A stretch of DNA of 5,243 bases from positions 1 through 5,243 of IMG/VR virus record IMGVR_UViG_2671180556_000001. The stretch is one strand, 5' to 3'. Source of the stretch: a virus. Its lineage: Duplodnaviria; Heunggongvirae; Uroviricota; Caudoviricetes. The notes under the pieces are model-generated. The model ran no database searches and was not told where the DNA came from. It worked only from the letters and a program-made list of their open reading frames with translations. This document shows positions 827 to 5,227 of this stretch, piece by piece; positions within the stretch are counted from its first letter, which is position 1; each line of letters starts with the position of its first letter. The position numbers and the translations under genes are program-made.

Positions 827-916
827 TTGACGCGATGATTTATTCGGGGCTATATTCCTCACGCGCCAGCAAAATCTGGCGTCGGGATTAGCACCCCGGA
901 TATCGAAACGGTGCAT

Positions 917-937
917 AACCGCGCTGGCGGTTTTTTT
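917..937 (+). terminator. Candidate rho-independent terminator downstream of ninE
   Basis: Perfect 6-bp stem AACCGC (917-922) / GCGGTT (927-932) with a 4-nt loop GCTG, followed by a T run through 937. Confidence 0.5.
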
Positions 938-1101
938 ATGCGCTAAGCACAGTCACATTCGCGATTTATGGCGGGCTGTGTGGGGGAGCCGAAAGGCTCG
1001 CCGGATGTTTCGACCGGTAGTGCTAACCCCGCACAGTTCGCCACCACGATGATTAGCACCTGACGGTGGCGAGGTAAAAATTATCGAAACGCGAGGTCAT
1101 T

Positions 1102-3181: not shown

Positions 3182-3849
3182 ATATCTACGAAAGAATTGA
3201 TGGCAGCAAATACCGAAATATTTGGGTAGTTGGCGATCTGCACGGATGCTACACGAACCTGATGAACAAACTGGATACGATAGGATTCGACAACAAAAAA
3301 GACCTGCTCATCTCGGTTGGCGATTTGGTTGATCGCGGTACAGAGAACGTCGAATGTCTGGAATTAATCACATTCCCCTGGTTCAGAGCTGTACGTGGAA
3401 ACCATGAGCAAATGATGATTGATGGCTTATCAGAGCGTGGAAACGTTAATCACTGGCTGCTTAATGGCGGTGGCTGGTTCTTCAATCTCGATTACGACAA
3501 AGAGATTCTGGCTAAAGCTCTTGCCCATAAAGCAGAAGAACTTCCGTTAATCATCGAACTGGTGAGCAAAGATAAAAAATATGTCATTTGCCACGCCGAT
3601 TATCCTTGTAACGAATACGAATTTGGAAAGCCAGTTGATCCTCTGCAGGTAATCTGGAACCGCGAACGAATCGGCAACTCACAAGACGGGATCGTGAAAG
3701 AAATTAAAGGCGCGGACACGTTCATCTTTGGTCATACGCCAGCAGTGAAACCACTCAAATTTGCCAACCAGATGTATATCGATACCGGCGCAGTGTTCTG
3801 CGGAAACCTCACATTGATTCAGGTACAGGGAGAAGGCGCGTGGGCATAA
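3178..3849 (+). CDS. Serine/threonine protein phosphatase (lambda phosphatase-like metallophosphoesterase)
   Basis: Metallophosphatase signature motifs are visible: GDLHG, GDLVDRG and GNHE. The N-terminal sequence ([35 protein letters not shown]) is close to lambda protein phosphatase as I recall it. The ATG overlaps the ninG stop (ATGA). Confidence 0.9.
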
Positions 3850-4328
3850 GAGAACTAAACCTCACCAAAGAACAGCACGAGTGGCTGAATGGCTGGCTTG
3901 AACTGTGGGGCGCATGGGTTTATTCAGGTCGTCTGGAAAAGCGCATGAGCAGCGTAATAGCGAAGTTCATGGAGAGCGTAGAGCCGGGAAGAGTTATGAC
4001 AAGGCCAATGTGTAATGATGATGATGGAATGTTGATTTCTCAGGTCGTCGATTCCGTCATGTACATTGACAAGAAAGCCTTCGGCATCCTCCTCAGCTAC
4101 TACGCTCATGGTTCTTCCAGGCACGCCATTGCATCTTACTATCATCGCGTCGCAAGACCTCGCAAGATGTTATGCCGGGGCGGCGGGCGCATTCAAAAAC
4201 CATCGCTCGCAACCTGTCGACGGGAAGTTGACGAAATCCTTAATGCCTCGTTGTTTATGATTTACCCGGTTCTGGATAGTGCGTTTAAAAACCGGAAACG
4301 TGTAGAGAAAATTAAACATGTAGCATAG
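3840..4328 (+). CDS. Q: Late-gene antitermination protein Q (non-lambda Q family, phage 82/21/Stx-phage type)
   Basis: The product carries the N-terminal LWGAWV motif that I recall from the small Q antiterminator family, and the gene sits directly upstream of a candidate late promoter. GGGAGAAGG at 3828-3836 precedes a GTG start at 3840, overlapping the phosphatase 3' end by 10 nt. The start is uncertain; the next in-frame ATG is at 3945. Confidence 0.7.
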
Positions 4329-4373: not shown

Positions 4374-4418
4374 GCTGCCGTTAGTGACTCTTAAGTTGCA
4401 ACGGTGGCTTTTTTATTT
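4374..4418 (+). terminator. Candidate tR'-like intrinsic terminator
   Basis: 9-bp stem GCTGCCGTT (4374-4382) / AACGGTGGC (4400-4408) including two G-U pairs, a large 17-nt loop, then TTTTTTATTT (4409-4418). Confidence 0.45.
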
Positions 4419-4493
4419 GGGTCAGTCGTATAAAGGTCATTACGGAAGGCTGTTAACCTTCTTATCGTGGTTCGAGTCCACGCTGTCCCGCCA
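4419..4493 (+). tRNA. tRNA-Asn(GUU)-like gene, 75 nt including encoded CCA
   Basis: Manual cloverleaf: acceptor GGGTCAG/CTGTCCC (one T-T mismatch at pair 4-69), U8, D arm GTAT-AAAGGTCA-TTAC with G18/G19, perfect anticodon stem GAAGG/CCTTC with loop CTGTTAA (anticodon GTT), T arm CGTGG-TTCGAGT-CCACG, discriminator G, CCA. The anticodon loop and T loop resemble E. coli tRNA-Asn as I recall it. Confidence 0.55.
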
Positions 4494-4498
4494 AACAT

Positions 4499-4574
4499 GC
4501 TGGTTTAGCTCCAATGGTAGAGCAACTGACTTGTAATCATCAGGTCGCCAGTTCGATTCCGGTAGCCGGCACCA
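4499..4574 (+). tRNA. tRNA-Thr(UGU)-like gene with imperfect stems, 76 nt including CCA; possibly divergent or a pseudo-tRNA
   Basis: Acceptor GCTGGTT/AGCCGGC (7 pairs, two G-U), U8, canonical D arm GCTC-CAATGGTA-GAGC, anticodon loop CTTGTAA (anticodon TGT), T loop TTCGATT, discriminator A, CCA. The anticodon stem (ACTGA/TCATC) has only 3 Watson-Crick pairs and the T stem (GCCAG/CCGGT) has one A-C mismatch. Confidence 0.5.
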
Positions 4575-4577
4575 TAT

Positions 4578-4652
4578 GCGGGTACCGTATAATGGCTATT
4601 ACCTCAGCCTTCCAGGCTGATGATGCGGGTTCGATTCCCGCTACCCGCTCCA
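4578..4652 (+). tRNA. tRNA-Gly(UCC), glyT-like, 75 nt including CCA
   Basis: Perfect 7-bp acceptor GCGGGTA/TACCCGC, D arm GTAT-AATGGCTA-TTAC, perfect anticodon stem TCAGC/GCTGA with loop CTTCCAG (anticodon TCC), perfect T arm GCGGG-TTCGATT-CCCGC, discriminator T, CCA. The sequence is nearly identical to enterobacterial tRNA-Gly2 (glyT) as I recall it. Confidence 0.8.
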
Positions 4653-4665
4653 GATTTATTATCAG

Positions 4666-4688
4666 GCTCGCTTCGGCGGGCTTTTTTT
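4666..4688 (+). terminator. Rho-independent terminator after the tRNA cluster
   Basis: 6-bp stem GCTCGC (4666-4671) / GCGGGC (4676-4681) with one G-U pair and a TTCG tetraloop, followed by seven T (4682-4688). Confidence 0.6.
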
Positions 4689-4740
4689 GTATCTGCGTTA
4701 CACCATTAACTAATAAATCGAGTGCTTATCAGGAGGCTAT

Positions 4741-4965
4741 GTGAAAAAGCTGATGGTGACGATTGGTCCGTTCGAAACAGAAGTTAGTTTTCGTGTCGTT
4801 CAGGGGGAGAGTGTACTTGTTGAAGATGTATTTCATGGAAAATCAACAGGTCCTTATGTAAAAGAATATTTTGTCGACGCCACGGATGAAAATATTGAGG
4901 TGGTGTACGATTCCGTCAATCACCCTAATTTGATCATTAAGGCAAAATTGAAACCACTTTATTGA
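4741..4965 (+). CDS. Hypothetical small protein (74 aa), unknown function, in the cargo position downstream of the late promoter
   Basis: ORF with AGGAGG at 4731-4736 and a GTG start at 4741 (short 4-nt spacer); stop TGA at 4963-4965. I recognise no motif in the product. Confidence 0.5.
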   Translation: MKKLMVTIGPFETEVSFRVVQGESVLVEDVFHGKSTGPYVKEYFVDATDENIEVVYDSVNHPNLIIKAKLKPLY

Positions 4966-5017
4966 TCTGAGCGGGAGCAATCATAAAATATCTCTGGGTA
5001 CCCATAAGGAGATAAAT

Positions 5018-5227
5018 ATGTTTGTTGCTGAAGGGGTAATGGAAGATAAGGACAACAAAGGATGTGTTAAAGGTTGGGCTGTGGTAAGAAACTCGCCATG
5101 GCATCTTGTTGGGGTTTTTGCGACAGAGGAAGACGCGGAAATGGAAGCAAGAAAGACGGGAGATGAGTACGAGGTTCACTATGGCTCGCATCGAACAGGA
5201 AGTGATGATTTTGTCTGGGGGGAGTAA
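5018..5227 (+). CDS. Hypothetical small acidic protein (69 aa), unknown function
   Basis: Strong Shine-Dalgarno AAGGAG 7 nt upstream of the ATG at 5018; stop TAA at 5225-5227. The C-terminus is acidic (EEDAEMEARKTGDEYE). I recognise no confident family. Confidence 0.6.
   Translation: MFVAEGVMEDKDNKGCVKGWAVVRNSPWHLVGVFATEEDAEMEARKTGDEYEVHYGSHRTGSDDFVWGE

What the first reader, a model, noticed from the sequence alone, without database searches (positions are those of the whole stretch)
4578..4652. tRNA-Gly(UCC) looks like a near-copy of host glyT with specific substitutions
The fold is fully canonical, but position 8 is C rather than the near-universal U8, and the anticodon loop ends in G at position 38 (CTTCCAG). 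As I recall the host glyT sequence, it has U8, A38 and a C6-G67 pair, whereas this gene has T6-A67, which would be a compensatory acceptor-stem change. A host-derived tRNA with anticodon-loop and core substitutions is the pattern expected for a variant that escapes a tRNA-targeting nuclease or has altered modification.
Basis: partly seen in the sequence, partly recalled or inferred. Interest (0 to 1): 0.6.

Follow-up and report, generated by a model that had tools for sequence, protein, structure and literature searches.

The report
Prophage glyT copy in tRNA cassette
This is a prophage-carried copy of the E. coli glycine tRNA glyT with two rare extra substitutions, sitting in a three-tRNA cassette whose two neighbours bear the sequence marks of resistance to tRNA-cutting defence nucleases, although the glycine tRNA itself does not.

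Summary
Window 4578-4652 is a tRNA-Gly(UCC) gene that differs from host glyT at exactly positions 6, 8, 38 and 67.

T6-A67 is not special. It is the common prophage allele, present in roughly 390 of 5,426 complete E. coli genomes. C8 and G38 are rare derived changes (7 genomes) confined to one cassette lineage, Asn(GUU)-Thr(UGU)-Gly(UCC), downstream of the late antiterminator Q.

That cassette is a recombinant. Its Asn is identical to that of phage HK446. Its Thr is HK446-type for positions 1-26 and thrU-type for 27-76. The thrU-type part carries G42U/U43C, which matches the published two-factor rule for resistance to the P2 Old nuclease.

Gly(UCC) is a published Old target, and host glyT has the full Old motif (A37, CNG at 28-30 and 40-42). 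The window's Gly keeps that motif intact. G38 creates a C32-G38 pair next to cleavage Site 2, with unknown effect. An unbiased survey shows scattered, drift-like variation in prophage Gly copies.

Verdict: an ordinary supplementary phage tRNA in an interesting counter-defence context. Nuclease escape by the Gly substitutions is plausible but unproven (about 0.2-0.25).

The parts
3840..4328 (+). Late antiterminator Q gene. The tRNA cassette lies in its downstream late-transcript leader.
   Evidence: Pfam PF06530 Phage_antitermQ, E=3.2e-24. Annotated 'antiterminator Q family protein' in the matching loci L001 and L005.
4409..4418 (+). T-run (TTTTTTATTT) marking the left edge of the shared tRNA module. 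Homology with phage HK446 begins here.
   Evidence: Alignment of the window with HK446. The simple scan did not score it as a terminator, so a tR'-like role is inference only.
4419..4493 (+). tRNA-Asn(GUU). Not host-like, and 100% identical to the Asn of phage HK446. Its anticodon stem lacks the CNG pair (AAG/CUU against host CGG/CCG) and it has C39 instead of U39.
   Evidence: (55.3 bits).
4499..4574 (+). Chimeric tRNA-Thr(UGU). Positions 1-26 are identical to HK446 Thr. Positions 27-76 are thrU-like with G42U/U43C (3' CNG CAG>CAU; pairs 27-43 and 28-42 lost), A49G and U68C (restores G5-C68).
   Evidence: Rfam 49.0 bits; ARAGORN misses it; PGAP annotates tRNA-Thr in L001. Comparisons.
4575..4577 (+). 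3-nt spacer TAT between Thr and Gly, shared with the thrU-type Thr-Gly prophage cassettes.
4578..4652 (+). tRNA-Gly(UCC), the finding. A glyT paralogue with T6-A67 (the common prophage allele) plus the derived C8 and G38. A37 and CNG motifs CAG(28-30)/CUG(40-42) are unchanged.
4664..4690 (+). Intrinsic terminator-like hairpin with T-run, closing the tRNA cassette.
   Evidence: 8-bp stem, 5 G-C pairs, T-tail. Conserved in all cassette copies.
4741..5227 (+). Two small ORFs (74 aa and 69 aa) of unknown function in the moron slot downstream. This module is shared with ileZ-argN-argO arrays of O26/O145 prophages. They are context, not part of the tRNA function.
   Evidence: no Pfam; phrog_2571, phrog_4280, both unknown function.

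Best explanation
The gene is a prophage paralogue of the single-copy host gene glyT. It is the last member of an Asn(GUU)-Thr(UGU)-Gly(UCC) cassette in the Q-dependent late leader of a lambdoid, Stx-phage-like prophage that lacks stx. It would be transcribed with the late operon, processed by host enzymes (CCA is encoded) and charged by GlyRS, since all identity bases are retained. It then adds decoding capacity for GGA/GGG during lytic growth. The cassette arose by recombination inside the Thr gene between two circulating lambdoid modules. One is the HK446-type Asn-Thr pair. The other is a Thr-Gly pair derived from thrU and glyT whose Thr already carried G42U/U43C. T6-A67 is the ordinary prophage allele. 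C8 and G38 are lineage-specific derived changes. They are most likely tolerated, neutral-to-mildly-deleterious substitutions in a redundant copy, carried along with a Q-tRNA module whose selected parts are the Asn and Thr genes. Shown: identity, context, allele distribution, chimerism, motif status and codon usage. Inferred: expression, charging, and the selective neutrality of C8/G38.
For: Exactly four differences from host glyT. Prophage context downstream of Q. T6-A67 alone in about 390 E. coli records and 46 of 119 IMG/VR hits. C8+G38 in only 7 of 5,426 genomes and always linked to the chimeric Thr. Asn is identical to HK446, and Thr 1-26 is identical to HK446 while 27-76 is thrU-like. An unbiased sample of 127 Thr-Gly cassettes gives 23 Gly alleles with rare substitutions at about 20 positions, G38 in 2 of 127. 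Rfam scores fall stepwise 65.6 > 61.6 > 55.4 > 49.2 along the allelic series. The Gly keeps A37 and both CNG motifs, whereas T5 Gly(UCC) lacks them. Most cassettes with the resistance-type Thr carry an unmodified Gly. Prophage codon usage is GGA 14.7/1000 and ACA 14.4/1000, about twice the E. coli average from memory. A Watson-Crick 32-38 pair weakens decoding but does not abolish it (PMC7293025). U68C restores G5-C68 in the chimeric Thr, so the cassette stayed under selection after it formed.
Against: The derived Gly changes are not randomly placed. G38, and U39 in sister alleles, lie 1-2 nt 5' of Old Site 2 and the AriB cut at 40|41. A38G is seen on at least two or three different backgrounds, only in phage arrays. 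It is followed twice independently by loss of the C31-G39 pair. The two cassette sublineages carry different core changes at adjacent positions, C8 or A10. Gly(UCC) is the second tRNA listed as depleted by P2 Old. No expression or charging data were available.
Confidence: 0.5

Rival explanations
1. Nuclease-escape variant. G38, perhaps with C8 and later U39, hardens Gly(UCC) against an anticodon-arm or loop nuclease such as P2 Old, another Toprim/OLD-family enzyme or a HEPN anticodon nuclease. It would do so by extending the anticodon helix (C32-G38) next to the Site 2 scissile bond. The cassette would then be a three-tRNA counter-defence set.
For: Old depletes Thr(UGU) and Gly(UCC) first and cuts after nt 27-29 and 40. 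Host glyT has the full motif. Old cleavage is sensitive to anticodon-stem length. AriB resistance in T5 tRNA-Lys maps to positions 39 and 41. The retron IX HEPN cleaves tRNA-Gly(UCC) and appears to recognise loop shape. The neighbouring Asn and Thr carry resistance-type changes, and HK446 Thr rescues phages from Old experimentally. Thr 42-43 is changed convergently, to UC and to CC. G38 recurs in several phage array types and never in a chromosomal glyT among species representatives.
Against: Both CNG motifs, A37 and the 27-43 pair are intact, so by the published rule the tRNA is still a substrate. G38 lengthens the stem rather than shortening it. The allele is rare (7 of 5,426 genomes). Most resistance-type Thr genes sit beside an unmodified Gly. 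T4-like, Vequintavirinae and T5 Gly(UCC) all keep A38. P2 old is present in only 17 of 5,426 genomes, and none of them carries the cassette. The search for G38 was targeted, so its recurrence cannot be tested statistically.
Confidence: 0.22
2. Decaying pseudogene. The Gly copy lost function with G38, which collapses the anticodon loop, and is accumulating further hits (C8 or A10, U39 or A39, U62). Only Asn and Thr would be maintained.
For: Stepwise loss of covariance-model score. Predicted 7-bp helix with a 3-nt loop, and alternative D-region pairing. Changes at near-universal positions U8 and G10. U39 and U62 alleles within the lineage. Some carriers are IS-disrupted prophages. L190 and L180 are clearly degenerate G38 copies.
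Against: The score is still 55.4 bits against a threshold of 29. All GlyRS identity bases and CCA are intact. The gene is identical in at least 12 copies across different prophages and hosts. Natural Watson-Crick 32-38 pairs are functional tuning elements. HK446 Thr works in rescue assays despite C14 at the 8-14 pair. L185 shows compensated acceptor-stem evolution on a G38 gene.
Confidence: 0.18
3. Decoding tuner. C32-G38 weakens or sharpens codon reading by the G/C-rich UCC anticodon, for example by restricting it to GGA or changing frame maintenance, in a way that benefits phage late-gene translation.
For: The 32-38 pair tunes codon binding, and nucleotide 32 controls glycine-codon discrimination (PMC7293025). 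C32-G38 is predicted to form. GGA is enriched in the prophage.
Against: There is no direct evidence. The allele is rare, and most prophage copies keep A38. This idea does not explain C8 or A10.
Confidence: 0.07

Closest known systems
E. coli chromosomal glyT (tRNA-Gly2, anticodon UCC) in the thrU-tyrU-glyT-thrT-tufB operon
   Same: 71 of 75 bases identical. Same anticodon, D-arm, T-arm, discriminator U73 and encoded CCA. Same A37 and CNG motifs.
   Different: Prophage location downstream of Q. T6-A67, C8 and G38. Preceded by Thr(UGU) at 3 nt, whereas the host gene is preceded by tyrU at about 116 nt.
Common lambdoid/Rac-type prophage Thr(UGU)-Gly(UCC) cassette (e.g. loci L003 and L004; phages SerU-LTIIb and vB_EcoS-683R6)
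   Same: Thr-TAT-Gly arrangement, the T6-A67 allele, and a position between Q and the lysis genes.
   Different: Those carry U8 and A38 and usually a Thr identical to host thrU. The window adds an Asn, a chimeric Thr, and C8/G38.
Phage HK446 Asn(GUU)-Thr(UGU) module. Its Thr(UGU) rescues phages from P2 Old (bioRxiv 10.64898/2026.07.10.737580).
   Same: Same position after Q/pR', identical Asn, same 5-nt spacing, and identical Thr positions 1-26.
   Different: HK446 has no Gly. Its Thr anticodon arm (GUCGC/GCGAA) is replaced in the window by a thrU-type arm with G42U/U43C.
Old-resistant phage tRNA-Thr (Govande et al., NAR 2025, PMC12445682) and PARIS-resistant T5 tRNA-Lys/Thr/Asn (PMC12409363)
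   Same: Phage copies of tRNAs targeted by Toprim nucleases. The window's Thr and Asn show the same classes of change: CNG alteration plus stem shortening, and a change at position 39.
   Different: The Gly in question shows neither CNG alteration nor loss of the 27-43 pair. No Gly(UCC) resistance variant has been described, and nothing was tested experimentally here.
Stx-phage ileZ-argN-argO rare-codon tRNA array
   Same: Same slot between Q and the moron/lysis genes, and the same downstream terminator plus two small ORFs. A rare-codon supplementation logic applies: GGA and ACA are enriched.
   Different: Different tRNA identities, and no sequence homology within the tRNAs.

Membership tests
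Bacterial elongator tRNA-Gly(UCC) (Rfam RF00005) | Cloverleaf scoring above the family threshold, with anticodon UCC | tested here: met
   55.4 bits against a gathering score of 29. ARAGORN calls tRNA-Gly(tcc).
Bacterial elongator tRNA-Gly(UCC) (Rfam RF00005) | E. coli GlyRS identity set (U73, G1-C72, C2-G71, G3-C70, C35, C36; the set itself is from established knowledge) | tested here: met
   All are present in the sequence.
Bacterial elongator tRNA-Gly(UCC) (Rfam RF00005) | Near-universal U8 forming the U8-A14 tertiary pair (s4U8 in E. coli) | tested here: not met
   C8. Non-U8 is found only in this cassette lineage in IMG/VR.
Bacterial elongator tRNA-Gly(UCC) (Rfam RF00005) | Open 7-nt anticodon loop with a non-Watson-Crick 32-38 combination, as in host glyT (C32.A38) | tested here: not met
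   C32-G38, pairing probability 1.00, MFE helix extended. Whether it opens on the ribosome is not testable here.
Host-derived prophage Thr(UGU)-Gly(UCC) cassette | Near-identity to glyT; lies 3 nt (TAT) after a Thr(UGU) gene; sits in the late region of a lambdoid prophage | tested here: met
Nuclease-resistant phage tRNA (P2 Old rule, PMC12445682) | The isoacceptor is a substrate of the nuclease | tested here: met
   Gly(UCC) is depleted by Old in vivo (literature). Host glyT has A37 plus CAG/CUG at 28-30 and 40-42.
Nuclease-resistant phage tRNA (P2 Old rule, PMC12445682) | Altered CNG pseudo-palindrome in the anticodon stem | tested here: not met
   The window Gly keeps CAG/CUG. The feature is met by the neighbouring Thr (CAU) and Asn (AAG/CUU).
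Nuclease-resistant phage tRNA (P2 Old rule, PMC12445682) | Shortened anticodon stem | tested here: not met
   All five pairs are intact and a sixth (32-38) is added. Only the sister alleles with U39 lose the 31-39 pair.
Nuclease-resistant phage tRNA (P2 Old rule, PMC12445682) | Resists cleavage and rescues phage or cell from the nuclease | not testable with these tools
   Requires cleavage and plating assays.
HK446-type Asn-Thr module | Same Asn and Thr sequences downstream of Q | tested here: inconclusive
   Asn is 75/75 identical. Thr is identical only for positions 1-26, then differs at 19 positions. The window holds a recombinant derivative.

The most novel reading that the evidence does not exclude
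A38G, which forms a C32-G38 pair and extends the anticodon helix beside cleavage Site 2, is a previously undescribed route by which a phage Gly(UCC) evades Toprim anticodon-arm nucleases such as P2 Old. It may be helped by the core changes C8 or A10 and by later loss of the 31-39 pair. Under this reading the Asn-Thr-Gly cassette is a modular, recombination-assembled anti-Old/PARIS tRNA set of temperate lambdoid phages.
Probability: 0.2. Interest if true: 0.65.

Novelty: new member of a known kind. Interest (0 to 1): 0.42.

Why it matters
Phage tRNAs that survive tRNA-cutting defence nucleases are a recent discovery, described mainly for large virulent phages (T4, T5) and for Thr, Lys, Asn and Tyr. 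Three results here extend that picture to temperate phages.

- Temperate lambdoid prophages of E. coli commonly carry Thr(UGU)-Gly(UCC) pairs. These are the first two tRNAs listed as depleted by P2 Old, the classic anti-lambda exclusion system.
- The Thr member has convergently acquired the published resistance signature, as UC or CC at positions 42-43.
- Modules are shuffled by recombination inside tRNA genes, which produces chimeric tRNAs.

If the Gly G38 allele also proved resistant, it would define a new determinant for Toprim nucleases and would give a natural full set for overcoming Old, which single tRNAs fail to do for lambda. If it does not, the gene is an ordinary redundant tRNA copy drifting beside selected neighbours.

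Tried and rejected
1. 'T6-A67 is part of a special variant'. Rejected: it is the standard prophage allele.
2. 'Position 38 is a mutational or selective hotspot'. Not supported by the unbiased sample: G38 in 2 of 127 cassettes, among 23 alleles scattered over about 20 sites.
3. 'Phage Gly(UCC) genes in general alter the Old motif or A38'. Rejected for T4-like, Vequintavirinae, Morganella phage and 683R6. T5 alters the CNG but keeps A38.
4. 'The window's Thr equals the experimentally Old-resistant HK446 Thr'. Only positions 1-26 match.
5. 'The Gly 3' end is chimeric with argO of O26/O145 prophages', suggested by a BLAST extension. Rejected: homology starts after the tRNA.
6. 'Cassette carriers co-reside with P2 old'. 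Not seen: 17 genomes carry old and none carries the cassette. Diverged homologues are not covered by this search.
7. G38 in chromosomal glyT of other species. None found among GTDB species representatives.
8. Searches that led nowhere. The PARIS search returned mitochondrial-genome papers. The eLife 2023 paper gave no position-level data in its main text. The simple scan found no promoter upstream of the cassette.

Full report
**1. Observation**

ARAGORN finds tRNA-Gly(UCC) at 4578-4652 and tRNA-Asn(GUU) at 4419-4493. Rfam adds a third tRNA at 4499-4571 that ARAGORN misses. PGAP annotates it as tRNA-Thr in identical loci.

The true host glyT was taken from the thrU-tyrU-glyT-thrT-tufB operon.

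**2. Context**

The window is the nin/Q region of a lambdoid, Stx-phage-like prophage. It contains dam, ninE, a C4/isrK antisense RNA, ant, roi, ninG, pphA and Q. The closest deposited phage is JLK-2012 from O55:H7.

The three tRNAs lie between Q and a terminator. After them come two small ORFs of unknown function. This is the slot where Stx phages carry ileZ-argN-argO and stx.

**3. Allele survey**

Results in 5,426 complete E. coli genomes:

| Gly allele (relative to host glyT) | Where found |
|---|---|
| Window allele: T6-A67 + C8 + G38 | 4 genomes |
| + U39 (breaks C31-G39) | 3 genomes |
| T6-A67 + G38 only | 1 genome, in a Rac-type prophage |
| T6-A67 only | roughly 390 records |

Results in IMG/VR:
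- A truncated sample of 119 hits gave 67 host-identical copies, 46 T6-A67, 2 T6.G67 and 4 with C8+G38.
- Every non-U8 copy belongs to the window-type cassette.
- I then took a sample that does not depend on the Gly sequence, by anchoring on the upstream Thr 3' end. Its 127 cassettes gave 23 Gly alleles, with rare substitutions at about 20 positions. G38 appeared in 2 of the 127.
- This is the pattern expected for mild drift in a redundant copy.

Rfam scores fall stepwise along the series: 65.6, 61.6, 55.4, 49.2 bits.

**4. Origin of the cassette**

Phage HK446 carries Asn-Thr downstream of Q/pR'. Its Asn is 75/75 identical to the window's. Its Thr is identical for positions 1-26 and then differs at 19 positions. 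The window's Thr positions 27-76 are thrU-like.

The window cassette is therefore a recombinant, with the crossover in the shared GGUAGAGCA stretch (positions 18-26) of the Thr gene. One parent is an HK446-type Asn-Thr module, which is present in 347 of 5,426 genomes. The other parent is a thrU/glyT-type Thr-Gly module.

The thrU-like part carries G42U/U43C. This change also occurs on non-chimeric thrU copies in several array types. A different replacement at the same two positions, CC, occurs too.

A sister sublineage of the cassette occurs in E. albertii and in metagenomes. It has Thr U68 and Gly A10+G38 with U8 kept. The window sublineage has U68C, which restores G5-C68. So the cassette remained under selection for structure after it formed.

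**5. Link to known defence nucleases (literature)**

- **P2 Old.** It cuts after C28 and C40 of paired CNG motifs in the anticodon stem, with an invariant A37. thrU is its best substrate. Phage Thr tRNAs resist only when a CNG alteration is combined with stem shortening (PMC12445682).
- **Old targets in vivo.** A 2026 preprint lists Thr(UGU), Gly(UCC), fMet, Val(UAC) and Pro(UGG) as depleted. It shows that HK446 Thr(UGU) rescues phages, while host thrU does not.
- **PARIS AriB.** It cuts Lys, Thr(UGU) and Asn(GUU) at 40|41 and reads U36-A-A-U39.

Status of the three cassette tRNAs against these rules:

| tRNA | Host version | Window version | Fits resistance rule? |
|---|---|---|---|
| Thr(UGU) | CUG / CAG | 3' CNG lost (CAU); pairs 27-43 and 28-42 lost | Yes, both factors |
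| Asn(GUU) | CGG / CCG, U39 | No CNG (AAG/CUU); C39 | Yes |
| Gly(UCC) | A37, CAG / CUG | A37, CAG / CUG, all five stem pairs kept | No |

T5's Gly(UCC) lacks the CNG pair (AGG/CCU). T4-like and other phage Gly(UCC) genes keep both the CNG motifs and A38.

**6. What C8 and G38 do**

G38 creates a Watson-Crick C32-G38 pair with predicted probability 1.00. The predicted helix extends and the MFE falls by 4.5 kcal/mol. Published work shows that such 32-38 pairs weaken codon binding but are functional tuning elements in tRNAs with G/C-rich anticodons (PMC7293025).

C8 removes the U8-A14 pair and permits an alternative pairing of 8-11 with 15-18. C8 also cannot be thiolated to s4U8 (established knowledge).

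G38 and the later U39 lie 1-2 nt 5' of Site 2. G38 was found on several backgrounds and only in phage arrays:
- T6-A67 (the Rac-type copies and the cassette lineage);
- U5-A68 Arg-Gly arrays, including Citrobacter sedlakii, where G39>A follows;
- a compensated gut-metagenome variant (L185);
- a truncated copy (L190).

They are suggestive, but the searches were targeted at G38, so no unbiased statistic is possible.

**7. Ordinary function**

The prophage uses GGA at 14.7/1000 and ACA at 14.4/1000. That is about twice the E. coli average as I recall it. These codons are read only by the single-copy glyT and thrU isoacceptors, which supports supplementation as the base function of Thr-Gly cassettes.

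P2 old is present in only 17 of 5,426 genomes at megablast sensitivity, and none of them carries the cassette.

**8. Verdict**

The gene is a prophage glyT paralogue in a recombinant tRNA cassette. The Asn and Thr members carry nuclease-resistance signatures. The Gly member does not match the known rule, and its C8/G38 changes are rare and lineage-restricted.

| Reading of the Gly gene and its C8/G38 changes | Confidence |
|---|---|
| Supplementary tRNA with tolerated derived changes | about 0.5 |
| Adaptive nuclease escape | about 0.22 |
| Decaying pseudogene | about 0.18 |
| Decoding tuner | about 0.07 |

It is a new member of a known kind. Interest is moderate, because the context makes a sharp, testable prediction.

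Noticed in passing
IMG/VR loci L038, L187, L189, L192, L194-L199 (Thr genes), plus the sample: Prophage thrU copies that otherwise differ from host thrU only by minor D-loop (and occasional T-loop) polymorphisms carry G42U/U43C or G42C/U43C. Both changes destroy the 3' CNG motif and unpair 27-43 and 28-42, which is the published two-factor P2 Old resistance signature. They occur in several array types and mostly sit next to an unmodified Gly.
   Followed up: partly
L171 (phage HK446, NC_019714) 35097-35171 and 35177-35252: HK446 has two tRNA genes, Asn(GUU) and Thr(UGU). Neither is annotated in the record, and the Old preprint mentions only a single tRNA. The Asn lacks the CNG pair and has C39, so it may matter for Old and PARIS too. 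The module is present in 347 of 5,426 E. coli genomes.
   Followed up: partly
window 4499-4574: The tRNA-Thr is an intragenic recombinant (HK446-type 1-26, thrU-type 27-76). ARAGORN does not call it. U68C in this sublineage restores a G5-C68 pair.
   Followed up: yes
window 850-1048: C4 antisense RNA (75 bits), isrK (77 bits) and c4-a1b1 target sites lie just upstream of the ant antirepressor gene. This is a P1/P7-style antisense control module inside a lambdoid prophage.
   Followed up: no
window 4741-4965 and 5018-5227: Two small ORFs (phrog_2571 and phrog_4280, unknown function, no Pfam) lie in the slot where Stx phages carry stx. The same terminator-plus-ORF module follows ileZ-argN-argO in O26/O145 prophages.
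   Followed up: partly
L190 (IMG/VR), Gly-derived gene after a thrU-UC Thr: A glyT-derived gene with anticodon UAC (C35>A), G38 and a truncated 3' end. It is either a decayed copy or a remnant of an anticodon switch towards Val(UAC), which is another Old target.
   Followed up: no
L131 1194-1271 and L182 652-729: Met-?-Arg(UCU)-Gly arrays contain a tRNA-like gene that ARAGORN labels '???' with a two-base anticodon.
   Followed up: no
window 4583 and 4643 (Gly positions 6 and 67), and about 390 E. coli records: The common prophage allele changes G67 to A. This base lies in the C-rich 3' acceptor strand, 6-7 nt upstream of CCA, where retron Eco2 is reported to nick tRNAs including a tRNA-Gly (PMC12916289). 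This is an untested lead, and the isoacceptor is not stated in that paper.
   Followed up: no
L178 (E. albertii), L181, L143, L191, L200, L201: A sister sublineage of the cassette carries Gly A10+G38 (U8 retained) instead of C8+G38. So two different core substitutions at neighbouring positions sit on the same G38 background.
   Followed up: partly
L010 5276-5788: In strain UTME-3 an HNH endonuclease gene is inserted between Q and the tRNA cassette.
   Followed up: no
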